Origin: a virus
Taxonomy: Duplodnaviria; Heunggongvirae; Uroviricota; Caudoviricetes
IMG/VR virus record: IMGVR_UViG_2740892229_000010
Length of the DNA stretch: 23,413 nt
Direction: 5' to 3' (one strand)
The notes beneath the pieces were generated by a model. It ran no database searches. It was not told where the DNA came from and saw only the letters and a program-made list of their open reading frames with translations. The position numbers and the translations under genes were made by a program. Positions 1 to 12,936 of this stretch are shown here, piece by piece (position 1 is the stretch's first letter; each line of letters starts with the position of its first letter).

Positions 1-90
1 GCGCTGACGCTGACGGATGTTACAAAAAATGCAGCGTATGGCGTTGAGATAGAAAGTCTGGTGCTGGAGATAAATGCACCGGCAGCATAA
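1..90 (+). CDS. 3' end of an unidentified upstream gene, truncated by the window start
   Basis: Open frame from position 1 to TAA at 88-90 (…YGVEIESLVLEINAPAA*). Only 29 codons visible, too short for the ORF track; the frame was chosen by eye. Its position upstream of the late leader is compatible with a Q-like antiterminator C-terminus, but I do not recognise the sequence. Confidence 0.2.
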   Translation, partial: ALTLTDVTKNAAYGVEIESLVLEINAPAA

Positions 91-132
91 TAAAAAAAGA
101 GCCAGCGACTGACCTGAAAGAAGACGCTGGCT
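91..132 (-). terminator. Putative intrinsic terminator, minus-strand orientation
   Basis: 8-bp stem agccagcg/cgctggct at 100-132 with a 17-nt loop; a run of seven A at 92-98 on the + strand gives a T-run after the hairpin on the - strand. No T-run follows on the + strand. Confidence 0.3.
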
Positions 133-600
133 AAAAGGCCTTATATGTTTGTAGAGACTTATTTTTCACAGACAGCAATGATGCCTGTCAATATATTATC
201 AATATGCGGATTGTTTCAGTTACAGATGCTTTATTAAGGAAAAAAACAGCCAGCACTGACTTTCGGTGGAGAGGTGCTGGCTCAGAAGGATAGTTGGATT
301 TCACATGATACTTATGCCTGGCGGTATATTTTCTGACAGACAGTGACGGGTGTTGTCAAGATATTGTGTCATTTATAACCTGAATCAGGGGAGGCCGGAA
401 TGTTATCTGGNNNNNNNNNNTCCACTCTGAAGGACGCTGGCTAAAACGGGTAGATGTACTTCACATGATACTTATATTTGGCAGTACATTTTCTGACAGA
501 CAGTGACGGATGTTGTCAAGATATTGTGTCATTTATAACCTGAATCAGGGGTTGGTCGGAATGTTATCTGGCATTTTTAGCAGAGCCTGAATGCCATAAT
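97..600. repeat. Diverged repeat units of about 150 bp, each with a stem-loop and a conserved downstream block
   Basis: Unit A (about 97-240) and unit B (about 241-410) are adjacent with no N run between them and share a hairpin plus a block like 'ttctgacagacagtgacgg.tgttgtcaagatattgtgtcatttataacc'. Unit C (421-600) follows the N run at 411-420 and is near-identical to B, so it is probably the allelic copy rather than a third tandem unit. Confidence 0.5.
238..283 (-). terminator. Putative intrinsic terminator, minus-strand orientation (second repeat unit)
   Basis: 9-bp stem agccagcac/gtgctggct at 249-283, preceded on the + strand by an A-run at 238-245. The stem differs from unit A by compensatory changes that keep pairing. 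Confidence 0.3.
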
Positions 601-617
601 CACGGCTCCCGGAGTTG

Positions 618-654
618 GCCGTCAGTGGGTGACACTGGCGGCTTTTTGTTTTCC
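618..654 (+). terminator. Rho-independent terminator in the late leader upstream of the holin (tR'-like)
   Basis: 10-bp stem gccgtcagtg/cactggcggc (one G-U pair), 5-nt loop ggtga, then tttttgttttcc. It lies 44 bp upstream of the holin ATG, the position tR' occupies in lambda. Confidence 0.55.
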
Positions 655-697
655 TTTACTTTCATTTTCTGTCGGCGGTGACGGAGACATACATCAG

Positions 698-904
698 ATG
701 GAAAAAATCACAACGGGTGTGTCATACACCACGTCAGCGGTGGGGACGGGATACTGGTTACTGCAGCTGCTGGACAAAGTCTCTCCGTCCCAGTGGGTGG
801 CAATAGGTGTGCTGGGAAGTCTGCTGTTTGGCCTGCTGACGTATCTGACTAACCTGTATTTCAAAATCAGAGAGGACCGTCGTAAGGTGGCGCGGGGAGA
901 GTAG
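698..904 (+). CDS. S: Class II holin, phage-21-type pinholin
   Basis: 68 aa from ATG 698 ([68 protein letters not shown]). Closely matches the S21 pinholin as I recall it, including the [21 protein letters not shown] tail; two hydrophobic segments; GGAGA about 10 nt upstream. The ORF track's 629 start is an upstream extension across the terminator. Confidence 0.85.
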
Positions 905-950
905 TCGATGAATAAACAATACGAACTGGTTGTAAAATGANNNNNNNNNN

Positions 951-999
951 TTATTTCAAGATTAAAGAAGATAAGCGTAAGGTGGCGCGGGGAGAGTAG
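951..999 (+). other. Allelic second copy of the holin 3' end after an N run
   Basis: Following N 941-950 the sequence restarts inside the holin tail and encodes …YFKIKEDKRKVARGE* against …[15 protein letters not shown] in the first copy. The R-to-K changes are conservative, as expected for a paralogous allele rather than sequencing error. Confidence 0.6.
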
Positions 1000-1254
1000 T
1001 CGATGAATAAACAATACGAACTGGTTGTAAAATGAATATTTCTAACTGAAAAAACGTTCCATGAGGTAAGAAAAGGTCACAGGCAATCAATAACAGGACG
1101 TGATGAAAGACCCTTGCATTTGTGCGCTTTCTCTTTAGATAGCAGCAGATACTGAAAATCTGAGTTGTCGGGGAGTCAGGGATACAGCTGTGCAAGAGTT
1201 GGTCATTGTGATTCCATTGAAATCCTGTATGCCATGAAGGGCAGGATTTTATGG

Positions 1255-1569
1255 CTACCTGAGCTTTGGTGATAGTAAGTTGAAAATTCGCATTTTTTGC
1301 TGACATGCGTAACGAGAATCCCATAAGCAGGGAGGACTTAATTCTTCATTAACCCATGCGTTGATATTATGTTTCAGCCGTTGAAGCATCAGCGGTGTTA
1401 ATGTTGTGGTAATAATATCCAGCGTTTTATGTGAGATCTTACCGTAAGGGTCTGCAAGAATGCTGCTTGTTGCTTCGTTATTATCTGCCATCAGAAGAAG
1501 TAACTCTGATTTAACGTTTTCTGTCATTAGTTGTAAAAATCTTCTGCGCAAACTTTCTTTACTGTTCAT
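1255..1569 (-). CDS. Hypothetical protein on the opposite strand inside an AT-rich insertion between holin and endolysin
   Basis: 104-codon ORF antisense to the lysis operon in a region (about 1021-1686) visibly more AT-rich than the flanking phage genes. No recognisable motif and no strong SD at any of the candidate starts (1569, 1524, 1488). Confidence 0.3.
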   Translation of the reverse strand: MNSKESLRRRFLQLMTENVKSELLLLMADNNEATSSILADPYGKISHKTLDIITTTLTPLMLQRLKHNINAWVNEELSPPCLWDSRYACQQKMRIFNLLSPKLR

Positions 1570-1686
1570 TTATATGGCTTCATTTGTTGTAATCTGCTGC
1601 GTCTCAAGGGATATGTTTATGAGAGCGACCATGAGTGTTGGATTATATACCTAACATATCAAGGGATTAGAAATCGATAAATCCCC

Positions 1687-2204
1687 ATGAACGAAAAAAT
1701 AAAATACGGCCTGTCGGCTGCCGTTCTGGCGCTGATTGGTGCAGGTGCTTCTGCGCCTGAAATCCTCGACCAGTTTCTGGATGAAAAGGAAGGTAACCAC
1801 NNNNNNNNNNGATCTGGACCATCTGCCGTGGTGCCATTCTGGTGGATGGTAAGCCTGTTATTCCTGGCATGAAGCTGTCAAAGGAAAAATGCGACCGGGT
1901 TAATGCCATCGAACGTGACAAGGCTCTGGCATGGGTGGAGAAAAACATCCGGGTGCCGCTGACCGAACCCCAGAAAGCGGGGATCGCGTCATTCTGTCCG
2001 TACAACATTGGCCCCGGTAAGTGCTTCCCGTCGACGTTTTATAAACGAATTAATGCAGGCGATCGAAAAGATGCCTGTGAGGCGATTCGCTGGTGGATTA
2101 AGGACGGTGGCAGAGACTGCCGTATCCGTTCAAATAATTGCTACGGTCAGGTCTCACGGCGTGACCAGGAGAGCGCGCTGGCGTGCTGGGACATCGACAG
2201 ATAG
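1687..2204 (+). CDS. R: SAR endolysin (phage lysozyme, 933W R-like), interrupted by an N run
   Basis: N-terminus MNEKIKYGLSAAVLALIGAGASAPEILDQFLDEKEGNH has the weakly hydrophobic signal-anchor-release segment. After N 1801-1810 the ORF 1842-2204 continues …DGKPVIPGMKLSKEKCDRVNAIERDKALAWVEKN…RRDQESALACWDIDR, matching the 933W-type lysozyme as recalled. The apparent frame change at the N run is an assembly effect. Confidence 0.85.
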
Positions 2205-2294
2205 CAGAATATTTTCCTGAAAAATGACGTTGGCCAACGCGGGTGGATAACACGAAATCCTGAAAACTGGTAAAACCTAAGTGAATAAAAGTAA

Positions 2295-2334
2295 AAACCC
2301 CGTTTGTTGGCAGCAAGCGGGGTTTTGTGTTTTC
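2295..2334 (+). terminator. Rho-independent terminator between endolysin and spanin genes
   Basis: Stem ccccgtttg/caagcgggg extended by aaa/ttt, 7-nt loop, then ttttgtgttttc. Confidence 0.5.
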
Positions 2335-2424
2335 TGACCTTGAGTAAGGCAAGGGAGAAATTATGGGTAGGGAGGTACTTTCCCTGTGAGGAAGTATAAA
2401 AGATTCTTTCTGAGGTTGTCCATT

Positions 2425-2538
2425 ATGAAAGGCATTGAAGTGGAGACGCCAGCCAGTCTGGATTTAACAAGAGCGGCAGCTTTTGCCATTCGTATTGTGG
2501 CCATTGCTGTTCTGGTCTGGGCAATCCGTTGGTGGTGA
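2425..2538 (+). CDS. Small hydrophobic ORF (37 aa) coupled to the Rz start
   Basis: ATG 2425 with GAGG 9 nt upstream; MKGIEVETPASLDLTRAAAFAIRIVAIAVLVWAIRWW; stop TGA 2536-2538 sits 1 nt before the Rz ATG (tgATATG). Below the ORF-track length cutoff. One predicted TM helix. Confidence 0.3.
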   Translation: MKGIEVETPASLDLTRAAAFAIRIVAIAVLVWAIRWW

Positions 2539-2539
2539 T

Positions 2540-3172
2540 ATGAACCGTGTTCTGTGCGTGGTTATCATTGTCCTGCTGGTGGCCTGTGGTGCGCTTAGTC
2601 TGGGGCTGAATCATTACCGTGATCACGCCATCATCTACAAAGAGCAGCGCGATAAAAAAGCCAGTGAGCTGGAGCTGGCGAACGCGACAATTACTGATAT
2701 GCAGATACGCCAGCGTGATGTCGCTGCACTTGATGCCAGATACTCGAGGGAATTAGCCGATGCGAGAGCTGAAAATGAAACTNNNNNNNNNNTCATCACC
2801 TACAAAGCGCAGCGCGATAAAAAAGCCAGAGAGCTGGAGCTGGCAAACGCAACCATTACTGATATGCAGGTGCGCCAGCGCGATGTTGCTGCGCTCGATG
2901 CAAAATACTCGAGGGAATTAGCCGATGCGAGAGCTGAAAATGAAACTCTGCGTGCTGATGTTGCCGCTGGTCGTAAGCGCCTGCGGATCAACGCCACCTG
3001 CTCCGGTACCGTGCGTGAAGCCACCGGCACCTCCGGCGTGGATAATGCAACCGGCCCCCGACTGGCAGACACCGCTGAACGGGATTATTTCATCCTCAGA
3101 GAACGGCTGATGGCAATGCAGAAGCAACTGGAAGGAGCACAGGAATATATCCGTACCCAGTGTATACCGTGA
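2540..3172 (+). CDS. Rz: Rz inner-membrane spanin (i-spanin), composite across an N run
   Basis: From ATG 2540: [41 protein letters not shown]…[35 protein letters not shown], matching lambda Rz as recalled. The N run at 2783-2792 is followed by an allelic repeat of the preceding 50 codons, so the true protein is about 150 aa, not the 210 implied by the coordinates. Confidence 0.8.
2940..3110 (+). CDS. Rz1: Rz1 outer-membrane lipoprotein spanin (o-spanin), embedded in Rz in the +1 frame
   Basis: [56 protein letters not shown]: lipobox LVVSAC and a proline-rich mature part matching lambda Rz1. Lies wholly inside Rz in a different frame. An alternative ATG at 2925 is in frame. Confidence 0.75.
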
Positions 3173-3635
3173 TGTTTTGTTATGAAGGTGTTACTGGTAA
3201 CGTTAAGGTAATTTAACAAAGAGTCAGTTCCGGACTTTATAGTGTGCTCAGTTCATGGCCAAAAACGATTTCTGTGATAAATATTTTGAATATTATTTAC
3301 AGGTAAATGGAGTGGGGCGCATGGATAGAAATATTACAATAGAGTATGAAGTATATGCCCGTATTGTATGGGCAGAGAAGGCAAAAACATGGTAATTCCG
3401 TGTGTTGCCATGATACCTGATTGGCAGAATTGTTGTTTGGTTTTGAGTATATAGTCAGCGTCTTTTGTTCGGTAATTGCTCTTTCAATTAAAATGCCAGA
3501 TATGATTTGCTTTTCTTTGTTGTTTAGTTTTTTTGTATATTATTTTTATTGTTTTTATATAATTAGTTTTTTATTGTTGTCTTATTAAGGACGGTAAATT
3601 CAGGATGGCAGTCTGTAGATAAACGGAGGTTACTT

Positions 3636-3950
3636 ATGCTACATGATCACCTGGCAGAATGTCTGGAGAAAAAAGGACTGTACCGGAGAGCAGCTGAACG
3701 ATGGGCAAAAGTGATGGTACAGCTAAGTGATGACCAGAAAAGAAAAGTGGCGGCACAGAAACGAGCAGAGTGTTTGCGTAAGGCGCGCCGGACTCCGGTT
3801 TCACCGGTGAACCTGACCGAAATAAAACAAGCGGTCAACAGACTACATTCTGAGTTGGGAATGGGATTTGAAGAGCGGCGGGTATTCCGACGATATAAAG
3901 GGACAGGAGAACAGAATACGTCCGGAAACGCGCGGTCAAAAAAATGCTAA
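3636..3950 (+). CDS. PerC-family transcriptional regulator (Pch-like)
   Basis: 104 aa with strong SD (ggagg) 7 nt upstream. The N-terminal motif KGLYRRAAERWAKVM resembles the PerC/Pch signature (GxYRRAAxRWLxVM, from memory). Preceded by about 450 bp of strongly AT-rich DNA (3181-3635). Confidence 0.6.
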   Translation: MLHDHLAECLEKKGLYRRAAERWAKVMVQLSDDQKRKVAAQKRAECLRKARRTPVSPVNLTEIKQAVNRLHSELGMGFEERRVFRRYKGTGEQNTSGNARSKKC

Positions 3951-3985
3951 AAAATATCTGAGAGCGTTATTGCCTGTTACCATAA

Positions 3986-4014
3986 GAAAAAGCGACTTTA
4001 GTGGTCGCTTTTTG
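3986..4014. terminator. Bidirectional intrinsic terminator between convergent genes
   Basis: Stem gcgac/gtcgc with an A-run on the 5' side and a T-run on the 3' side (aaaaagcgac-tttagtg-gtcgcttttt), between the PerC-like gene (+) and the YlcI-like gene (-). Confidence 0.5.
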
Positions 4015-5296: not shown

Positions 5297-7196
5297 TATG
5301 ATGGCTGCCGTTTCGGTTGCGCTGCAGCCTCTGGTCAGGGTTGTACCAATGACGGCAGTTGAATGGGCTGATCAAAATTATTATCTGCCTAAAGAATCTT
5401 CATATGGTGAGGGAGAATGGAAAACGCTGCCATTCCAGATCGCCATTATGAACTGTATGGGTAACGACCAGGTTCGCACGGTTAACCTGATTAAATCTGC
5501 CCGTGTTGGCTATACAAAGATGTTGCTGGGGGTGGTCGGGTATTTTATTGAGCATAAATCCCGAAACAGTCTGCTTTTTCAGCCCACGGATTCTGCCGCT
5601 GAAGATTTTATGAAGTCTCACGTGGAGGCGACGATTCGGAACGTGCCATGCCTGAAAGACCTTTCCCCATGGCTGGGTCGTAAACATCGTGACAATACTC
5701 TCACGCTGAAACGCTTTTCATCGGGCGTCGGTTTCTGGTGCCTGGGCGGCGCTGCCGCCAAAAACTACCGTGAAAAATCCGTGGACGTGGTCTGCTATGA
5801 CGAACTTTCCTCGTTCGAGCCGGATGTCGAAAAAGAGGGCTCGCCAACCCTGCTGGGGGATAAGCGTATTGAGGGGTCGGTGTGGCCAAAATCCATTCGC
5901 GGCTCGACGCCTAAAATCAAAGGCACCTGCCAGATCGAAAAAGCCGCTAACGAGTCGGCGCATTTTATGCGTTTTTATGTGCCCTGCCCGCACTGTGGGG
6001 AGGCGCAGTATCTGAAATTTGGCGATGAGTCCACGCCTTTTGGGCTTAAATGGGAGAAGGACAGCCCCGAAAGTGTTTTCTACCTCTGTGAACATCATGG
6101 CTGCGTGATCCATAAGTCTGAACTGGACCAGAGCAACGGGCGGTGGATCTGTGAAAACACGGGCATGTGGACCCGTGACGGTCTGACGTTTTTCAGCGCC
6201 CGGGGTGATGAAATTCCGCCGCCGCGCTCCATCACGTTCCATATCTGGACGGCGTACAGTCCGTTCACCACCTGGGTACAGATTGTCTATGACTGGCTGG
6301 ATGCACTGAAAGATCCCAACGGCCTGAAAACCTTTGTGAACACCACGCTGGGCGAGACCTGGGAAGAGGCCGTGGGCGAAAAACTCGATCACCAGGTACT
6401 GATGGATAAGGTGGTGCGTTACACGGCGGCGGTGCCTGCCCGGGTGGTTTATCTGACGGCGGGCATTGACTCGCAGCGAAACCGTTTTGAGATGTATGTC
6501 TGGGGATGGGCACCGGGAGAGGAAGCCTTTCTGGTGGATAAAATCATCATTATGGGGCGTCCCGATGAGGAAGAGACGCTGTTACGTGTGGATGCTGCGA
6601 TCAACAAAAAATACCGCCATGCGGATGGCACCGAAATGACCATTTCCCGTGTCTGCTGGGACACCGGGGGAATCGATGGTGAAATTGTTTATCAGAGATC
6701 AAAAAAACACGGTGTTTTCCGGGTGCTGCCGGTAAAGGGCGCGTCTGTCTATGGCAAGCCGGTGATCACCATGCCGAAAACCCGCAATCAGCGGGGCGTG
6801 TATCTGTGTGAAGTGGGGACGGACACCGCAAAAGAAATTCTCTATGCCCGTATGAAAGCCGATCCCACTCCTGCGGATGAAGCCACGTCGTATGCCATCC
6901 GTTTTCCTGATGATCCGGAGATTTTTTCGCAGACAGAGGCGCAGCAACTGGTCGCGGAAGAGCTTGTGGAGAAGTGGGAAAAAGGAAAGATGCGTCTGCT
7001 GTGGGATAACAAAAAGCGGCGTAACGAAGCGCTGGACTGCCTGGTGTATGCCTACGCGGCATTACGTGTGTCCGTGCAACGCTGGCAGCTTGATCTGGCT
7101 GTACTGGCAAAATCCCGGGAAGAAGAGACGACCCGGCCAACCCTGAAAGAACTGGCAGCGAAGCTGTCCGGAGGAGTGAATGGTTACAGTCGCTGA
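5268..7196 (+). CDS. A: Terminase large subunit (gpA-like)
   Basis: From ATG 5268 (MNISEQQLNN…): a long collinear match to lambda gpA, for example TAVEWADQNYYLPKESSYGEGEWKTLPFQ, KNYREKSVDVVCYDELSSF, FHIWTAYSPFTTWVQIV, KKRRNEALDC. The ORF track's 5211 start is an upstream TTG extension. Confidence 0.95.
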   Translation: MNISEQQLNNMMAAVSVALQPLVRVVPMTAVEWADQNYYLPKESSYGEGEWKTLPFQIAIMNCMGNDQVRTVNLIKSARVGYTKMLLGVVGYFIEHKSRNSLLFQPTDSAAEDFMKSHVEATIRNVPCLKDLSPWLGRKHRDNTLTLKRFSSGVGFWCLGGAAAKNYREKSVDVVCYDELSSFEPDVEKEGSPTLLGDKRIEGSVWPKSIRGSTPKIKGTCQIEKAANESAHFMRFYVPCPHCGEAQYLKFGDESTPFGLKWEKDSPESVFYLCEHHGCVIHKSELDQSNGRWICENTGMWTRDGLTFFSARGDEIPPPRSITFHIWTAYSPFTTWVQIVYDWLDALKDPNGLKTFVNTTLGETWEEAVGEKLDHQVLMDKVVRYTAAVPARVVYLTAGIDSQRNRFEMYVWGWAPGEEAFLVDKIIIMGRPDEEETLLRVDAAINKKYRHADGTEMTISRVCWDTGGIDGEIVYQRSKKHGVFRVLPVKGASVYGKPVITMPKTRNQRGVYLCEVGTDTAKEILYARMKADPTPADEATSYAIRFPDDPEIFSQTEAQQLVAEELVEKWEKGKMRLLWDNKKRRNEALDCLVYAYAALRVSVQRWQLDLAVLAKSREEETTRPTLKELAAKLSGGVNGYSR

Positions 7197-7386
7197 ACTA
7201 CAGGCGCTACGTCAGGCGCGCCTTGATTTATTAACCGGTAAACGGGTGGTGTCTGTCCAGAAAGATGGTCGCAGAATTGAATATACGGCGGCTTCTCTGG
7301 ATGAGCTTAACCGGGCGATCAATGATGCGGAGTCGGTACTGGGGACAACCCGGCGTCGCCGTCGTCCGCTGGGAGTGAGGTTATGA
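7180..7386 (+). CDS. W: Head-tail joining protein W
   Basis: 68 aa; LTGKRVVSVQKDGRRIEYTAASLDEL…RRRRRPLG matches lambda gpW. Overlaps the A stop and the portal start. Confidence 0.85.
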   Translation: MVTVAELQALRQARLDLLTGKRVVSVQKDGRRIEYTAASLDELNRAINDAESVLGTTRRRRRPLGVRL

Positions 7387-9368
7387 AACGAACGCCTGTC
7401 CTGATTGATGTGAACGGCGTTCCGCTTCGTGAGAGTCTCAGCTACAACGGGGGCGGTGCAGGATTTGGCGGGCAAATGGCGGAGTGGTTGCCACCGGCGC
7501 AGAGTGCCGATGCAGCCCTGCTGCCTGCGTTGCGTCTGGGGAATGCCCGGGCAGATGATCTGGTGCGCAATAACGGGATAGCGGCCAATGCGGTGGCCCT
7601 GCATAAGGATCATATTGTCGGGCATATGTTTCTGATCAGCTACCGTCCGAACTGGCGCTGGCTGGGGATGCGGGAGACTGCGGCAAAAAGTTTTGTCGAT
7701 GAGGTGGAGGCGGCCTGGTCGGAATACGCCGAAGGGATGTTTGGCGAGATCGACGTGGAAGAGAAACGCACGTTTACGGAATTTATTCGTGAAGGTGTGG
7801 GCGTTCATGCGTTTAACGGCGAAATCTTTGTGCAGCCGGTCTGGGATACGGAGAGCACGCAACTGTTTCGTACGCGTTTTAAAGCCGTGAGTCCGAAACG
7901 GGTGGACACGCCAGGACACGGTATGGGGAACCGTTTTCTGCGGGCCGGGGTGGAGGTCGATCGATATGGCCGTGCCGTTGCGTACCATATCTGTGAGGAT
8001 GATTTTCCGTTCTCTGGTAGTGGACGATGGGAACGGATCCCGCGTGAACTACCCACCGGGCGTCCGGCCATGCTGCATATTTTCGAGCCGGTGGAGGACG
8101 GGCAGACCCGTNNNNNNNNNNTGTGGAGGTCGATCGATATGGTCGTGCCGTTGCGTACCATATCTGTGAGGATGATTTTCCGTTCTCCGGGAGTGGACGA
8201 TGGGAACGGATCCCGCGTGAACTTCCCACCGGGCGTCCGGCCATGCTGCATATTTTCGAGCCGGTGGAGGACGGGCAGACCCGTGGGGCTAATCAGTTTT
8301 ACAGCGTCATGGAACGGCTGAAGATGCTGGATTCCCTGCAGGCAACACAGCTTCAGTCGGCCATTGTGAAAGCCATGTATGCAGCGACGATTGAAAGTGA
8401 ACTTGATACCGAAAAGGCCTTTGAATATATCGCCGGTGCGCCGCAGGGGCAGAAGGATAATCCGCTTATTAATATTCTGGATAAGTTCTCCACCTGGTAT
8501 GACACGAATAGCGTGACGCTGGGTGGTGTCAAAATTCCGCACCTTTTCCCCGGTGATGATCTGAAACTTCAGACCGCGCAGGATTCAGACAATGGATTTT
8601 CGGCGCTTGAACAGGCGCTGCTGCGGTATATCGCCNNNNNNNNNNGCAGACTGCGCAGGATTCAGACAATGGATTTTCGGCGCTTGAACAGGCGCTGCTG
8701 CGGTATATCGCCGCCGGTCTTGGCGTTTCCTACGAACAGTTGTCCCGTGATTACTCGAAGGTCAGTTATTCAAGTGCCCGCGCATCCGCCAATGAGTCGT
8801 GGCGCTATTTTATGGGGCGGCGAAAATTTATTGCGTCCCGGCTGGCCACGCAGATGTTTTCCTGCTGGCTGGAAGAGGCANNNNNNNNNNGGATTACTCG
8901 AAGGTCAGTTATTCAAGTGCCCGCGCCTCCGCCAATGAGTCGTGGCGCTATTTTATGGGACGACGAAAATTTATTGCGTCCCGGCTGGCCACGCAGATGT
9001 TTTCCTGCTGGCTGGAAGAGGCACTTCTTCGGGGGATTATTCGTCCGCCACGGGCACGTTTTGATTTTTATCAGGCGCGATCAGCCTGGTCACGGGCTGA
9101 GTGGATTGGAGCCGGAAGAATGGCCATTGACGGGCTCAAGGAGGTTCAGGAATCAGTGATGCGCATTGAGGCCGGACTGAGCACGTATGAGAAAGAGCTG
9201 GCGCTGATGGGTGAGGATTATCAGGACATTTTCCGCCAGCAGGTCAGGGAATCTGCAGAGCGGGAAAAAGCCGGACTCTCACGTCCGGTGTGGATAGCGC
9301 AGGCGTATCAGCAGAAGATAGCGGAGAGTCGCAGGCCGGAAGAGGAGACAACACCACGTGAGACGTAA
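7383..9368 (+). CDS. B: Portal protein (gpB-like), composite across three N runs
   Basis: Collinear with lambda gpB from MKRTPVLIDVNGVP… through GANQFYSVMERLKMLDSLQATQLQSAIVKAMYAATIESELDT and SARASANESWRYFMGRRKFIASR to the C-terminus. N runs at 8112-8121, 8636-8645 and 8881-8890 are each followed by an allelic repeat of the preceding segment, so the coordinates overstate the gene length. Confidence 0.9.
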
Positions 9369-9385
9369 TCTTTCANNNNNNNNNN

Positions 9386-9541
9386 CGAGGATTATCAGGA
9401 CATTTTCCGCCAGCAGGTCAGGGAATCTGCTGAGCGACAAAAAGCCGGACTCTCACGTCCGGTGTGGATAGCGCAGGCGTATGAGCAGCAGATAGCGGAG
9501 AGTCGCAGGCCGGAAGAGGAGACAACACCACGTGAGACGTA
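9386..9541 (+). other. Allelic second copy of the portal 3' end, carrying the C start
   Basis: After N 9376-9385 the last 50 codons of the portal recur with substitutions (for example AESAEREKAG versus AESAERQKAG, and QQKIAE versus EQQIAE). Confidence 0.6.
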
Positions 9542-11493
9542 ATCTTTCACACATTATTGCCGCAGCATTCAATGAACCGCTGCTTCTGGAGCCCGCCTAT
9601 GCGCGGGTTTTCTTTTGCGCGCTCGGGCGCGAGATGGGGGCATCAAGTCTTTCGGTACCACAACAGCAGGTACAGTTTGATGCTCCCGGAATGCTGGCTG
9701 AAACGGACGAGTACATGGCCGGAGGTAAACGACCGGCCCGTGTTTACCGGGTGGTGAACGGTATTGCGGTACTGCCGGTGACCGGCACGCTGGTGCACCG
9801 GCTGGGGGGTATGCGGCCATTTTCCGGAATGACAGGCTATGACGGCATTGTCGCCTGTCTTCAGCAGGCAATGGCGGATAGCCAGGTGCGGGGCGTACTG
9901 CTGGACATTGACAGTCCGGGCGGGCAGGCCGCCGGCGCGTTTGACTGCGCTGACANNNNNNNNNNTGATATCACGCTGATTTACTCAGGGGCGCACAAGG
10001 TGGATGGCAATCAGTTTGAAGCGTTGCCGGCAGAGGTTCGCCAGGACATGCAACAGCGCATTGATGCGGCGCGCCGGATGTTTGCTGAAAAAGTAGCGAT
10101 GTATACCGGTCTGTCTGTTGATGCTGTCACGGGAACAGAGGCCGCCGTTTTTGAAGGTCAGTCCGGCATTGAGGCCGGGCTGGCGGATGAATTAATCAAT
10201 GCGTCGGATGCCATCAGTGTGATGGCCACGGCGCTGAACAGTAATGTCAGAGGAGNNNNNNNNNNGATGCGGCCATTTTCCGGAATGACTGGCTATGACG
10301 GCATTGTCGCCTGTCTTCAGCAGGCAATGGCAGATAGCCAGGTGCGGGGCATACTGCTGGACATTGACAGTCCGGGCGGGCAGGCCGCCGGCGCGTTTGA
10401 CTGCGCTGACATGATTTACCGCCTCCGTCAGCAGAAGCCGGTCTGGGCACTGTGCAATGACACGGCCTGTTCTGCAGCCATGCTGCTGGCGTCGGCCTGC
10501 TCCCGACGGCTGGTTACCCAGACATCCCGTATCGGCTCCATTGGCGTGATGATGAGCCATGTCAGCTATGCCGGTCATCTGGCGCAGGCCGGTGTGGATA
10601 TCACGCTGATTTACTCAGGGGCGCACAAGGTGGATGGCAATCAGTTTGAAGCCTTACCGGCAGAGGTTCGCCAGGACATGCAGCAGCGCATTGATGCGGC
10701 GCGCCGGATGTTTGCCGAAAAAGTGGCCATGTTTACCGGTCTGTCTGTTGATGCCGTCACGGGAACAGAGGCCGCCGTTTTTGAAGGTCAGTCCGGCATT
10801 GATGCCGGGCTGGCGGATGAATTAGTCAATGCGTCGGATGCCATCAGTGTGATGGCCACGGCGCTGAACAGTAATGTCAGAGGAGGCACTATGCCGCAAT
10901 TAACTGCAACGGAAGCCGCCGCGCAGGAGAACCAGCGAGTGATGGGGATCCTGACATGCCAGGAAGCGAAAGGACGTGAACAGCTTGCCACGATGCTGGC
11001 AGGACAACAGGGCATGAGCGTTGAACAGGCCCGGGCGATTCTGGCCGCGGCGGCACCGCAGCAGCCGGTGGCATCCACGCAGAGTGAAGCCGATCGCATT
11101 ATGGCGTGTGAAGAAGCGAACGGTCGTGAACAACTGGCGGCAACGCTGGCGGCGATGCCGGAGATGACGGTGGAAAAAGCCCGCCCGATCCTGGCTGCTT
11201 CACCGCAGGCGGATGCCGGACCCTCACTCCGTGATCAGATCATGGCACTGGATGAGGCAAAAGGGGCTGAGGCGCAGGCTGAACAGCTGGCTGCCTGCCC
11301 GGGAATGACTGTGGAGAGCGCCCGGGCTGTGCTGGCTGCGGGATCAGGTAAGGCAGAACCGGTCTCTGCATCCACAACCGCCCTGTTTGAACGCATCATG
11401 GCGAACCATTCACCGGCAGCGGTACAGGGTGGCGTGCCACAGACGTCAGCAGACGGTGATGCGGACGTGAAAATGCTCATGGCTATGCCATGA
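9532..11493 (+). CDS. C: Head maturation protease / scaffold (gpC-like, S49 peptidase), composite across two N runs
   Basis: FNEPLLLEPAYARVFFCAL, GIAVLPVTGTLVHR, SGMTGYDGIVACLQQA, LLDIDSPGGQAAGAFDCAD and KPVWALCNDTACSAAMLLASACSRRLVTQTSRIGSIGVMMSH match lambda gpC. Segment 9966-10255 is allelic to about 10600-10875, and 10266-10400 is allelic to 9820-9955. Confidence 0.9.
   Translation: MRRNLSHIIAAAFNEPLLLEPAYARVFFCALGREMGASSLSVPQQQVQFDAPGMLAETDEYMAGGKRPARVYRVVNGIAVLPVTGTLVHRLGGMRPFSGMTGYDGIVACLQQAMADSQVRGVLLDIDSPGGQAAGAFDCADXXXXDITLIYSGAHKVDGNQFEALPAEVRQDMQQRIDAARRMFAEKVAMYTGLSVDAVTGTEAAVFEGQSGIEAGLADELINASDAISVMATALNSNVRGXXXXMRPFSGMTGYDGIVACLQQAMADSQVRGILLDIDSPGGQAAGAFDCADMIYRLRQQKPVWALCNDTACSAAMLLASACSRRLVTQTSRIGSIGVMMSHVSYAGHLAQAGVDITLIYSGAHKVDGNQFEALPAEVRQDMQQRIDAARRMFAEKVAMFTGLSVDAVTGTEAAVFEGQSGIDAGLADELVNASDAISVMATALNSNVRGGTMPQLTATEAAAQENQRVMGILTCQEAKGREQLATMLAGQQGMSVEQARAILAAAAPQQPVASTQSEADRIMACEEANGREQLAATLAAMPEMTVEKARPILAASPQADAGPSLRDQIMALDEAKGAEAQAEQLAACPGMTVESARAVLAAGSGKAEPVSASTTALFERIMANHSPAAVQGGVPQTSADGDADVKMLMAMP
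10891..11493 (+). CDS. Nu3: Nu3-like scaffolding protein from an in-frame internal start within C
   Basis: AGGAGG 6 nt upstream of ATG 10891, in the C frame, as for lambda Nu3. The product contains three tandem copies of a roughly 40-aa motif (IMGIL.C.EA.GREQLA..LA….M.VE.AR.ILAA). Confidence 0.5.
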   Translation: MPQLTATEAAAQENQRVMGILTCQEAKGREQLATMLAGQQGMSVEQARAILAAAAPQQPVASTQSEADRIMACEEANGREQLAATLAAMPEMTVEKARPILAASPQADAGPSLRDQIMALDEAKGAEAQAEQLAACPGMTVESARAVLAAGSGKAEPVSASTTALFERIMANHSPAAVQGGVPQTSADGDADVKMLMAMP

Positions 11494-11529
11494 AGTCAGT
11501 GCTGACCATCAACAGGAGGTTTTTACAAT

Positions 11530-11877
11530 ATGGTAACGAAAACCATCACTGAACAGCGTGCGGAAGTACGTATTTTTGCCGGTAATGATCCGGCTCATAC
11601 CGCCACAGGCAGCAGCGGGATTTCCTCGGCAACACCGGCACTGACGCCCCTGATGCTGGATGAAGCTACCGGGAAACTGGTGGTCTGGGACGGACAGAAA
11701 GCCGGTAGTGCGGTTGGCATACTGGTACTGCCGCTTGAAGGCACAGAGACGGTACTGACGTATTACAAGTCGGGGACCTTTGCGACGGAGGCAATCCGCT
11801 GGCCTGACAGTGTGGATGAACACAAAAAGGCAAATGCCTTTGCCGGCAGTGCCCTGAGTCACGCGGCGCTGCCGTAA
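11530..11877 (+). CDS. D: Head decoration protein (gpD-like)
   Basis: GNDPAHTATGSSG…TPLMLDEATGKLVVWDG…AVGILVLP…YYKSGTF…KKANAFAGSA matches lambda gpD; AGGAGG upstream. Confidence 0.9.
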   Translation: MVTKTITEQRAEVRIFAGNDPAHTATGSSGISSATPALTPLMLDEATGKLVVWDGQKAGSAVGILVLPLEGTETVLTYYKSGTFATEAIRWPDSVDEHKKANAFAGSALSHAALP

Positions 11878-11934
11878 CACGTTATCAGGCCACCGCGGTG
11901 GCCTGACTGATTTCTGAATGAAAGGAACTGATTT

Positions 11935-12936
11935 ATGGGATTGTTTACGACCCGCCAGTTACTCGGTTATACCGAACAAAAAGTGAAATTTCGTGCGCTG
12001 TTTCTGGAGCTGTTTTTCCGCCGTACGGTGAATTTCCATACCGAAGAGGTGATGCTGGACAAAATTACCGGAAAAACGCCGGTGGCGGCCTATGTCTCCC
12101 CGGTTGTTGAAGGAAAAGTGCTGCGTCATCGCGGTGGTGAAACCCGCGTGTTACGTCCGGGCTACGTCAAGCCGAAACACGAATTTAATTACCAGCAGGC
12201 GGTTGAGCGTCTTCCCGGTGAAGATCCGGCTCAACTGAACGACCCGGCCTACCGTCGTCTGCGTATCATCACCGATAACCTCAAACAGGAAGAGCATGCC
12301 ATTGTCCAGGTGGAAGAAATGCAGGCGGTGAATGCCGTGCTGTATGGCAAATACACCATGGAAGGGGATCAGTTTGATACTGTCGAGGTGGATTTTGGAC
12401 GCTCTGAAGGAAATAACATTGAGCAGGCCGACGGTAAAAAATGGTCTGAGCAGGACCGTGATACGTTTGATCCGACGCATGATATTGACCTCTACTGCGA
12501 TCAGGCCAGCGGTCTTGTGAATATTGCCATTATGGACGGTACTGTCTGGCGTCTGCTGAATGGTTTTAAGCTGTTCCGCGAAAAACTGGATACCCGTCGC
12601 GGCTCAAATTCACAACTCGAAACGGCAGTGAAAGACCTGGGGGCGGTGGTGTCCTTCAAGGGGTATTACGGCGATCTGGCCATTGTGGTGGCGAAAACGT
12701 CTTATGTGGCAGAGGACGGTACCGAAAAACGTTATCTGCCGGAGGGCACACTGGTCCTGGGGAATACGTCAGCAGAGGGCATTCGTTGCTATGGTGCCAT
12801 TCAGGATGCGCAGGCGTTGTCCGAAGGTGNNNNNNNNNNTGTGGGCGATCCGGCCCGTGAATTCACCATGACGCAGTCCGCACCGCTGATGGTGCTGCCG
12901 GATCCGGATGAGTTTGTGGTGGTACAGGTGAAATAA
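11935..12936 (+). CDS. E: Major capsid protein (gpE-like), allele 1, with an N run near the 3' end
   Basis: PGYVKPKHE, VEEMQAVNAVLYGKYTMEGDQF, KLDTRRGSNSQLETAVKDLG and GDPAREFTMTQSAPLMVLPDPDEFVVVQV match lambda gpE. N 12830-12839 deletes a few codons. Confidence 0.95.
   Translation: MGLFTTRQLLGYTEQKVKFRALFLELFFRRTVNFHTEEVMLDKITGKTPVAAYVSPVVEGKVLRHRGGETRVLRPGYVKPKHEFNYQQAVERLPGEDPAQLNDPAYRRLRIITDNLKQEEHAIVQVEEMQAVNAVLYGKYTMEGDQFDTVEVDFGRSEGNNIEQADGKKWSEQDRDTFDPTHDIDLYCDQASGLVNIAIMDGTVWRLLNGFKLFREKLDTRRGSNSQLETAVKDLGAVVSFKGYYGDLAIVVAKTSYVAEDGTEKRYLPEGTLVLGNTSAEGIRCYGAIQDAQALSEGXXXXVGDPAREFTMTQSAPLMVLPDPDEFVVVQVK

What the first reader, a model, noticed from the sequence alone, without database searches (positions are those of the whole stretch)
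1021..1686. AT-rich insertion of about 660 bp between holin and endolysin with an antisense ORF
Holin and endolysin genes are normally adjacent or overlapping in lambdoid lysis cassettes. Here they are separated by a markedly AT-rich segment whose only sizeable ORF (1255-1569, 104 codons) runs antisense to the late operon and resembles nothing I recognise. Compositional contrast plus opposite orientation is typical of a horizontally acquired moron (accessory cargo gene). Being inside the late transcript, it would be transcribed antisense during lysis, so it may be a lysogen-expressed gene. I could not find a credible ribosome-binding site, so it might be non-coding.
Basis: partly seen in the sequence, partly recalled or inferred. 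Interest (0 to 1): 0.6.

Follow-up and report, generated by a model that had tools for sequence, protein, structure and literature searches.

The report
Orphan antisense gene inside prophage lysis cassette
The AT-rich stretch between the holin and endolysin genes of this E. coli prophage carries a real, selectively maintained 104-residue protein gene of unknown function on the opposite strand, next to the decayed remains of a second gene; it is an ordinary, already-annotated accessory ("moron") gene.

Summary
A spacer with GC 0.395 (window mean 0.532) separates a P21-type holin (698-904) from a lysozyme endolysin (1687-2204). It carries a 104-codon ORF on the minus strand (1255-1569).

The ORF is a genuine gene. 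It matches phrog_1853 (E 3.5e-47). It has full-length homologues at 43-79% identity, with dN/dS of 0.13-0.32. It evolves more slowly than its flanks, and canonical ribosome-binding sites sit at the same start in relatives. The exact protein is "unknown protein encoded within prophage CP-933O" of EDL933. The DNA is at least 99% identical in 624 records of complete E. coli genomes.

It is not a lone insertion. In relatives it forms a convergent pair with a 185-297 aa gene on the late strand. That partner survives here only as a 10-codon stub and a weak pseudogene trace.

The AlphaFold2 model is a five-helix soluble bundle (pLDDT 88) with no recognisable relative in Pfam, NCBIfam, PADLOC, PDB or BFVD.

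Function is unknown. My best guess, at low confidence, is a protein made when the late operon is silent that binds a late-phase phage protein. Expression in the lysogen is untested.

Verdict: a known kind of feature (moron), an uncharacterised family, modest interest.

The parts
617..643 (+). Terminator-like GC-rich hairpin with a T-run just upstream of the holin. This is context only, not part of the cassette.
   Evidence: A similar hairpin motif lies upstream of the antisense gene in other alleles.
698..904 (+). Class II (phage 21 S-type) holin, 68 aa.
   Evidence: PF04971, E 1.4e-32. RefSeq annotates the same 207-nt CDS in L001.
908..940 (+). Ten-codon stub MNKQYELVVK*, the remnant of the 5' end of a DUF1327/YdfR-family partner gene. 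It is repeated at 1003-1035 after the N gap.
   Evidence: orf5 of Stx2 phage 86 starts MKKKYELVVKGI and matches PF07041 at E 3.7e-45.
941..950 (.). Assembly gap of 10 N. 951-1035 is a variant duplicate of 866-940.
   Evidence: Sequence and comparison with the complete genome L001.
1076..1207 (+). Probable pseudogene fossil of the conserved C-terminal core of the partner (GRCMGYLQvAAEIE...), with in-frame stops.
   Evidence: tblastn gives 36% identity over 44 aa, E 4.8e-5. A profile HMM scores 10.3 bits, against a maximum of 3.8 bits in 1200 shuffled frames. The evidence is weak but on the right strand and in the right position.
1255..1569 (-). Antisense accessory gene of 104 aa. It is a phrog_1853 family member, identical to the EDL933 CP-933O 'unknown protein', and is predicted to be a soluble five-helix bundle.
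1570..1686 (-). 5' region of the antisense gene. It holds a weak SD-like GAAG 9-12 nt before the ATG and a candidate -10 hexamer TATAAT at 1647-1642 (minus strand) with no good -35. On the plus strand the same DNA is the leader of the lysozyme gene.
   Evidence: the TATAAT is conserved in window, L057, L060, L061 and L007; L004 has TACAAT. The promoter scan found no site at its threshold.
1687..2204 (+). Lysozyme-family endolysin with a hydrophobic, SAR-like N-terminus. An N gap lies at 1801-1810.
   Evidence: PF00959, E 2.7e-15. The complete copies in related loci are 177 aa.

Best explanation
The segment is accessory ('moron') DNA lodged in the lysis cassette of a lambdoid E. coli prophage.

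Shown directly:
- 1255-1569 (minus strand) is a real protein-coding gene under purifying selection. It encodes a 104-aa soluble, all-helical protein of the phrog_1853 family. The true start is the ATG at 1569, not the internal Met that RefSeq uses.
- In relatives this gene is one half of a convergent, tail-to-tail two-gene cassette. The other half is a 185-297 aa protein encoded on the late-operon strand. Here that partner is reduced to a 10-codon stub and, probably, a decayed fossil.
- The small gene has stayed intact and constrained after the partner was lost.

Inferred from orientation and anatomy:
- The gene must use its own promoter in the 117-bp region next to the lysozyme start. The candidate -10 is TATAAT at 1647-1642.
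- It can therefore be expressed only when Q-dependent late transcription is off, that is in the lysogen or early after infection. Where the partner is present, convergent transcription would make the two genes mutually exclusive.

Best guess for function (about 0.4):
- The protein acts by protein-protein binding as an antagonist of a late-phase phage protein. Targets could be the partner family or a lysis-cassette product, from its own phage or from co-resident or superinfecting lambdoid phages.
- It is unlikely to be an enzyme, a membrane protein or a DNA-binding protein.

The overall confidence of 0.5 combines about 0.9 for the gene-level and cassette-level claims with about 0.4 for the functional guess.
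For: Coding:
- phrog_1853, E 3.5e-47.
- Full-length homologues at 43-79% identity with conserved N- and C-termini.
- dN/dS 0.13-0.32 in unsaturated pairs.
- Among partner-less alleles the ORF diverges 2.5-3.8%, against 5.9-7.8% for the 3' flank and 8.5-12% for the 5' region. Synonymous to non-synonymous codon changes are 6:2, 7:3 and 8:4.
- M15 is replaced by I, L or V in divergent members, and canonical SD sequences precede the 104-aa start in L002, L010, L011 and L013.

Cassette:
- The convergent partner is present in Stx2 phage 86, phage Stx2_12E129 and several E. coli contigs.
- It is also present in distant relatives, where the pair sits upstream of the holin next to three different holin families.
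- The 3' ends overlap or lie within 20 nt of each other.
- The fossil and the stub are described.
- The gene plus its 5' region is a discrete indel relative to the partner-only locus L094.

Protein:
- AF2 gives pLDDT 88 and five helices.
- There is no TM segment, and pI varies from 4.6 to 9.3 across the family.

Persistence:
- The gene is intact in a defective prophage whose lysozyme is cut by an IS and whose terminase and portal genes are frameshifted.
- The DNA is at least 99% identical in 624 records of complete E. coli genomes.
- The solo allele and an intact partner co-reside in NZ_CP074756.1 and NZ_AP038976.1.
Against: - There is no direct evidence of transcription or translation.
- The promoter scan found nothing at its threshold. 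The candidate promoter has a -10 hexamer only, and the SD of this allele is weak.
- No fold or sequence relative gives a functional lead.
- Evidence against a tight partner-specific interaction: the partner occurs intact without the antisense gene (L094), and the antisense gene occurs without the partner in at least 3 lineages. Nearly identical partners (94% identity) sit beside antisense alleles that are only 47% identical.
- The near-identity of most copies means that part of the 'persistence' may simply reflect recent spread.
Confidence: 0.5

Rival explanations
1. Orphan antidote. The small protein is specifically the neutraliser (antitoxin-like) of the convergent partner protein. Since the partner decayed here, it is either a leftover or protects only against partner copies from other prophages.
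For: The convergent pairing is conserved down to about 40% identity and in two different genomic positions. Divergence of the two proteins correlates across locus pairs, r = 0.64. The solo allele and an intact partner co-reside in some genomes.
Against: The partner exists intact without it. Allele shuffling is seen, with partners 94% identical beside antisense proteins 47% identical. Solo copies remain under purifying selection. There is no PADLOC or TA-family hit. The genes are not co-directional as in classical type II TA operons.
Confidence: 0.2
2. Lysogenic-conversion gene unrelated to phage late functions. The protein changes host physiology or regulation in the lysogen, as other EHEC prophage morons do. 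Its position beside the lysis genes reflects only a permissive insertion hot spot.
For: The orientation is antisense and the composition AT-rich, like lambda bor. The gene is retained in defective prophages. A PerC/Pch regulator moron lies 2 kb downstream in the same late region. In distant relatives the pair sits in the well-known moron hot spot between Q and the holin.
Against: There is no DNA-binding or regulatory domain signature. pI is not conserved, ranging from 4.6 to 9.3. The persistent linkage to one specific partner gene would be unexplained.
Confidence: 0.2
3. The functional product is the antisense transcript, not the protein. A promoter firing against the late operon gives transcriptional interference or antisense RNA that dampens leaky holin or partner expression in the lysogen.
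For: No terminator-like site lies between the ORF stop (1255) and the holin on the minus strand. The 3' ends of the convergent genes overlap in relatives.
Against: The amino-acid sequence is conserved while synonymous sites are saturated. The ORF is more constrained than the flanking DNA. There is no Rfam match. An RNA-only role would not maintain a 104-codon frame with conserved termini.
Confidence: 0.1
4. A relic with no present function. The gene is intact only because the allele spread recently.
For: 624 of 632 records are at least 99% identical. The partner is already decayed, the SD is weak, and the host prophage is often defective.
Against: The slightly diverged partner-less alleles (96-98% identity) show an excess of synonymous changes and slower change than the flanks. 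All 20 family-invariant residues are retained.
Confidence: 0.1
5. A non-coding spacer or leader. The ORF is a chance open frame.
For: The RBS is weak and no promoter was called.
Against: PHROG match at E 3.5e-47, dN/dS 0.13-0.32, a confident AF2 fold, and conserved length and termini across 43-79% identity.
Confidence: 0.02

Closest known systems
phrog_1853, Stx2-converting phage 86 orf6 (BAF34038.1), and the EDL933 CP-933O 'unknown protein' (RefSeq WP_000138558.1)
   Same: Same protein family. The exact 104-aa sequence is the EDL933 protein. Phage 86 orf6 is 53% identical, also 104 aa, and also lies antisense between S and R.
   Different: Nothing differs in kind. This allele has lost the adjacent partner gene. 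RefSeq annotates a 90-aa version that starts at an internal Met.
Lambdoid-phage morons, for example lambda bor (concept of Hendrix/Juhala; from my own knowledge)
   Same: Extra, AT-rich, self-contained DNA between late genes that are adjacent in other phages. Like bor, it is oriented against the late operon, so it is a candidate for expression from the prophage.
   Different: Bor is an exported lipoprotein with a known phenotype. This product is cytoplasmic and uncharacterised. No flanking promoter/terminator pair could be demonstrated. It normally travels as a convergent gene pair.
YdfR/DUF1327 (E. coli K-12 Qin prophage, essQ-ydfR-rrrQ)
   Same: It occupies the same slot between holin and endolysin. 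The window keeps a 10-codon stub of such a gene, and many partner proteins carry DUF1327 as their N-terminal domain. YdfR was reported to bind the RNase E catalytic domain and to co-purify RNA (PMC13232886).
   Different: It is encoded on the late strand and is unrelated in sequence to the 104-aa protein. It is not functional in this window.
Small cytoplasmic lysis modulators such as T4 RIII or P1 LydB (from my own knowledge)
   Same: Small soluble proteins encoded with or near lysis genes that act by binding a holin. This is a possible working analogy.
   Different: There is no sequence or fold similarity. Those genes are expressed with the lytic programme, not against it. This is a lead only, not a tested relationship.

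Membership tests
Protein-coding gene (as opposed to a chance ORF) | Homologues conserve length and frame, with purifying selection at the codon level | tested here: met
   Alignments A1-A3. dN/dS 0.13-0.32. Synonymous to non-synonymous changes 6:2, 7:3 and 8:4, and slower divergence than the flanks.
Protein-coding gene (as opposed to a chance ORF) | Recognisable translation initiation signal | tested here: inconclusive
   The window allele has only GAAG 9-12 nt upstream. Relatives have GAGGA, AAGGA or GGAG at the homologous start.
phrog_1853 | Significant match to the family HMM | tested here: met
   E 3.5e-47, residues 1-102 aligned to profile positions 57-158.
Moron (autonomous accessory gene in a phage operon) | Extra DNA between genes that are adjacent in related phages | tested here: met
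   In L094 the preceding gene's stop is 36 bp from the lysozyme ATG. Pair-containing loci carry about 450 bp more at exactly that point.
Moron (autonomous accessory gene in a phage operon) | Base composition distinct from the surrounding genes | tested here: met
   GC 0.395 against 0.53 in the flanks, in the lowest 2.2% of windows. Homologues are also 0.38-0.41 in E. coli loci of 0.46-0.51.
Moron (autonomous accessory gene in a phage operon) | Own promoter and terminator | tested here: inconclusive
   A conserved TATAAT lies at 1647-1642 (minus strand) but without a -35. The scan called no promoter, and no minus-strand terminator lies after the ORF.
Moron (autonomous accessory gene in a phage operon) | Expressed from the repressed prophage | not testable with these tools
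   This needs strand-specific RNA-seq or Ribo-seq of a lysogen. Literature searches found nothing relevant.
Toxin-antitoxin or known anti-phage defence system | Match to a known TA or defence protein model | tested here: not met
   PADLOC, Pfam and NCBIfam gave no hits for the ORF or for the partner, apart from DUF1327 in the partner's N-terminal domain.
Toxin-antitoxin or known anti-phage defence system | Obligate co-occurrence and co-variation of the two genes | tested here: not met
   Solo antisense gene in at least 3 lineages. Solo intact partner. Partner 94% identical beside antisense 47% identical.
Known non-coding RNA (Rfam) | Covariance-model match | tested here: not met
   Over 1-4000 there was only a chance-level rimP hit outside the region, E 0.63.
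Any solved or viral predicted fold family | Significant structural match | tested here: not met

The most novel reading that the evidence does not exclude
The 104-aa protein and its convergent late-strand partner form an unrecognised lysis-cassette-associated two-gene switch in lambdoid prophages. The small protein would be made in the lysogen and would block a late or lysis function of competing, co-resident or superinfecting lambdoid phages. That would be a form of prophage-prophage interference, or defence. The partner, made only from the late operon, would relieve the block for the phage's own lytic cycle. Solo copies such as this one would then be domesticated defence genes.
Probability: 0.12. 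Interest if true: 0.6.

Novelty: new member of a known kind. Interest (0 to 1): 0.3.

Why it matters
The gene sits in pathogenic E. coli prophages of O157:H7, O103, O111 and O145, and its DNA is present in about 12% of complete E. coli genomes. It is under selection even in defective prophages. It therefore probably does something for the lysogen or in competition between prophages.

It also marks the holin-endolysin junction as a recurrent cargo slot. The same slot holds the DUF1327/YdfR family, which was recently linked to RNase E.

On present evidence it remains one more uncharacterised phage accessory protein. The practical gains are a corrected start codon, recognition of the decayed partner, and a defined two-gene cassette that could be tested cheaply.

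Tried and rejected
Searches with no informative result:
- Pfam, NCBIfam and PADLOC on the ORF gave no hits. Pfam on all 19 aligned members at E up to 10 gave only scattered noise.
- Rfam over 1-4000 gave nothing in the region.
- A PDB sequence profile search gave nothing meaningful.
- A megablast of the spacer against the phage collection found no match. Only tblastn found four Stx2-phage records.
- An exhaustive HMM search of 1.84 billion representatives found only 21 clusters, with no informative distant relative. One 1344-aa hit at E 1.9e-4 is probably spurious.
- Two scans of one-genome-per-species contigs found no relative, and an earlier attempt was rejected with an error. The hosts of the distant relatives L010-L013 therefore stay unknown.
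- Literature searches on the accession, DUF1327/YdfR, Stx prophage morons and O157 antisense transcription found nothing about this gene.

Analyses that failed or were set aside:
- The partner protein structure came out at pLDDT 48.6, too poor for a fold search.
- I considered the alternative ORFs 962-1324 (minus) and 1460-1654 (plus) as genes and rejected them.
- I considered the internal Met (the 90-aa RefSeq start) and rejected it.
- I looked in the 5' region for a LexA box or a conserved operator-like inverted repeat. Nothing was conserved across alleles.

Full report
OBSERVATION

The window is the late region of a lambdoid E. coli prophage. In order it carries:
- a P21-type class II holin at 698-904 (PF04971, E 1.4e-32);
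- a lysozyme-family endolysin from 1687 (PF00959);
- Rz (PF03245);
- a PerC-family gene;
- the terminase subunits Nu1 and gpA, followed by an S49 protease.

The ORF listing confirms a 104-codon ATG ORF at 1255-1569 on the minus strand.

The composition contrast is real. GC is 0.395 for 1036-1686 and 0.384 for the ORF, against 0.536 for the holin, 0.533 for the lysozyme and 0.532 for the whole window (SD 0.053 for 651-nt windows). Only 2.2% of such windows are as low.

The window is a gapped draft. Runs of 10 N at 411-420, 941-950, 1801-1810 and 2783-2792 are flanked by near-duplicate sequence, so the apparent spacer is inflated by about 95 bp. In the complete genome of O157:H7 PV15-279 the holin stop and the lysozyme start are 687 bp apart, and the arrangement is otherwise identical.

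The 666-bp query is found with at least 80% coverage in 626 of 5426 complete E. coli genomes, and 624 records are at least 99% identical. The arrangement is therefore not an assembly artefact.

IS THE ORF A GENE?

Yes, on five lines of evidence.

1. It matches phrog_1853 at E 3.5e-47.

2. Protein searches found full-length homologues of 104-106 aa at 43-79% identity. All are from E. coli and all are labelled hypothetical. An exhaustive HMM search of 1.84 billion representatives found only 21 clusters. These include more distant members of 105-107 aa (P0062, P0063, P0068).

3. Both termini, the length and twenty residues are invariant across the 19-sequence alignment.

4. Pairwise Nei-Gojobori estimates give dN/dS of 0.13-0.32 wherever dS is not saturated. 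For example, window against L004 gives dN 0.117, dS 0.671 and a ratio of 0.17.

5. Slightly diverged alleles with the same partner-less architecture (L057, L058, L060 against L014) show the ORF differing by 2.5-3.8%. The 3' flank differs by 5.9-7.8% and the 5' region by 8.5-12%. Synonymous to non-synonymous codon changes are 6:2, 7:3 and 8:4. Constraint has therefore continued in this architecture.

The two other mechanical ORFs in the segment, 962-1324 (minus) and 1460-1654 (plus), have no family hits. In those same alleles they collect stops or mostly non-synonymous changes.

The start is the ATG at 1569. RefSeq annotates a 90-aa product from the internal Met15 (WP_000138558.1). That Met is I, L or V in divergent members, the preceding 14 residues are conserved, and L002, L010, L011 and L013 have GAGGA, GAGG, AAGGA or GGAG sites in front of the homologous first ATG.

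The exact 104-aa sequence is recorded as 'unknown protein encoded within prophage CP-933O' of EDL933.

WHAT THE SEGMENT REALLY IS

In every intact relative the small gene is paired tail-to-tail with a gene on the late-operon strand.

- In Stx2 phage 86 the order is S, orf5 (268 aa), orf6 (antisense, 104 aa, 53% identical to ours), R.
- The same order appears in phage Stx2_12E129 and in several E. coli contigs, with partners of 189-217 aa.
- In the three distant lineages the convergent pair is still together, but it sits upstream of the holin and next to different holin families (PF04971, PF05106, PF16080).
- The 3' ends overlap by 8-33 nt or are separated by at most 20 nt. No terminator can fit between them.

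The partner has a variable N-terminus, either a coiled coil or a DUF1327/YdfR domain, and a conserved C-terminal core (GRCMGYLQvAAEIE ... PPFK..P..W..PG..YLKGRI) that corresponds to phrog_1085.

In the window the partner is gone. Two traces remain:
- Directly after the holin stop there is a 10-codon ORF, MNKQYELVVK* (908-940, duplicated at 1003-1035). It matches the start of the DUF1327 partners, MKKKYELVVK.
- On the plus strand, 1076-1207 retains a degenerate trace of the C-terminal core with two in-frame stops. tblastn gives 36% identity over 44 aa (E 4.8e-5 against this short region). A profile HMM gives 10.3 bits against a maximum of 3.8 bits in 1200 shuffled frames. This trace is weak. 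I call it probable, not proven.

Each gene can also stand alone. Among 80 IMG/VR loci, about 50 carry the small gene without a detectable partner. These include at least three separate lineages: the window type, L062, and L068/069/072, where only about 100 bp separate the gene from a different holin.

Conversely, strain NR363 has an intact 297-aa partner whose stop is 36 bp from the lysozyme ATG, with no antisense gene. Alignment shows that homology stops at the partner stop and resumes 6 nt before the lysozyme ATG. The antisense gene plus its roughly 120-bp 5' region is therefore a discrete indel of about 450 bp. That is the textbook anatomy of a moron.

Partner DNA is detectable in 1131 of 5426 complete genomes. 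The small gene is detectable in 674 by blastn, which misses the phage-86-type alleles.

EXPRESSION SIGNALS

The gene points against the late operon, so it needs its own promoter within 1570-1686.

- The consensus scan reports no sigma-70 site at its threshold and no minus-strand terminator after the ORF.
- By alignment, a TATAAT at 1647-1642 (minus strand) is conserved in the window clade (TACAAT in L004). It lacks a usable -35.
- A second invariant block, GATATGTTA, overlaps it. The same DNA is also the leader of the lysozyme gene, so its conservation is ambiguous.
- Other alleles (L002, L003, L010-L012) carry a GC-rich hairpin upstream of the gene. The window allele lacks it.

Expression timing is therefore an inference from orientation. 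Head-on late transcription from the Q-modified polymerase should silence this promoter. Where the partner is present, the two genes should be mutually exclusive.

THE PROTEIN

AlphaFold2 on the 19-sequence alignment gives a confident five-helix bundle, with mean pLDDT 88 and pTM 0.78. There is no hydrophobic segment (maximum Kyte-Doolittle 19-residue score 0.66). The pI ranges from 4.6 to 9.3 across the family. That argues against a conserved nucleic-acid-binding surface and is compatible with a protein-binding role.

Nothing informative came from:
- Pfam, NCBIfam or PADLOC;
- PDB sequence profiles;
- BFVD (best E 1.7);
- Foldseek against PDB (best E 1.2).

The partner model was too poor to use, at pLDDT 48.6.

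MECHANISM AND RIVALS

What is shown: a constrained protein gene, accessory DNA, a decayed partner, and a soluble helical product.

What is inferred: an autonomous promoter, expression when the late operon is silent, and convergent interference with the partner.

For function I commit, at about 0.4, to a binding antagonist of a late-phase phage protein. Candidate targets are the partner family or a lysis-cassette product, from the gene's own phage or from other lambdoid phages in the same cell.

Reasons for this guess:
- The gene is linked to one partner gene and to lysis cassettes across deep divergence and in two genomic positions.
- It is retained under constraint in partner-less and defective prophages.
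- Solo copies co-reside with partner-bearing prophages in at least two genomes.

Evidence against a strict antitoxin-like pairing:
- Each gene occurs alone.
- Partner alleles 94% identical sit beside antisense alleles only 47% identical.

Other rivals are a host-directed conversion factor, an RNA-level role for the antisense transcript, or a recent relic. A purely non-coding reading is effectively excluded.

COMPARISON WITH WHAT IS KNOWN

The gene is a member of phrog_1853 and is identical to an EDL933 protein annotated since the original genome. It is not new as a sequence.

As a kind of feature it is a moron. It is AT-rich, discrete, and antisense to the late operon like lambda bor (from my own knowledge). 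The promoter/terminator criterion could not be met and expression is untested.

The slot between holin and endolysin is the one that ydfR occupies in the K-12 Qin prophage. [quoted passage not shown] That bears on the partner's N-terminal domain, not on the 104-aa protein.

No paper I could search mentions this gene.

VERDICT

The moron interpretation is largely right, but the non-coding alternative is wrong, and the segment is a half-decayed two-gene cassette rather than a single insertion. This is an ordinary feature of EHEC prophages with an unknown function, and interest is modest at 0.3. The most novel reading the evidence still allows is a lysogen-expressed interference and self-relief switch tied to lysis cassettes. 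It would deserve about 0.6 if true, but I put it at roughly 0.12.

Noticed in passing
window 411-420, 941-950, 1801-1810, 2783-2792: Ten-N scaffold gaps, each flanked by near-duplicate sequence (for example 866-940 against 951-1035, and 2560-2782 against 2793-2960). The window looks like a draft assembly that joined variant copies from several lambdoid prophages. Gene lengths across these gaps, including the lysozyme and Rz, cannot be trusted.
   Followed up: partly
window 3636-3950 (+): A PerC/Pch-family transcriptional activator gene (PF06069, E 5.4e-44) lies between the lysis genes and the terminase. This is a known type of EHEC virulence-regulator moron.
   Followed up: partly
window 3100-3600: A second, even more AT-rich stretch (GC down to 0.275) carries small ORFs. 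3255-3395 matches phrog_2157 (E 2e-37). 3421-3588 encodes a very hydrophobic 55-aa product with only a weak PHROG hit.
   Followed up: partly
window 2294-2326 (+) and 2386-2538 (+): A strong terminator-like hairpin (15-pair stem plus a T-run) lies inside the late operon between the lysozyme and Rz. It is followed by a 50-aa ORF with a hydrophobic C-terminus that matches phrog_4493 (E 1.4e-24). The weak Rfam rimP hit here (E 0.63) looks like chance.
   Followed up: partly
window 617-643 (+); L002, L003, L010, L011, L012 upstream of the antisense gene: A hairpin of the form CCGYCAGYGG-loop-CACTGGCG followed by a T-run precedes the holin in the window. A near-identical motif precedes the antisense gene, in that gene's direction, in other alleles. 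The window allele lacks it. Its role (terminator, attenuator or 5' stabiliser) is unexplained.
   Followed up: no
L001 6235-6507 (equals window 1255-1527): RefSeq (WP_000138558.1) starts the antisense gene at an internal Met, giving 90 aa. Comparative evidence favours the 104-aa start.
   Followed up: yes
L094 1961-2854: PGAP annotates an intact 297-aa YdfR-family ORF (DUF1327 plus coiled coil plus conserved C-terminal core) as a partial pseudogene and leaves its 3' half unannotated. The spread sample listed includes many complete genomes with this unannotated pattern.
   Followed up: partly
L001 (O157:H7 PV15-279) 6667-12034: The prophage carrying the identical allele is defective. Its lysozyme is truncated by an IS3-family element, and its terminase and portal genes are frameshifted. 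The antisense gene is nevertheless intact.
   Followed up: no
L010 6195-6833: In the most distant genomic relative a HicA/HicB toxin-antitoxin pair sits between the Q antiterminator and the partner/antisense cassette. This is the same cargo hot spot.
   Followed up: no
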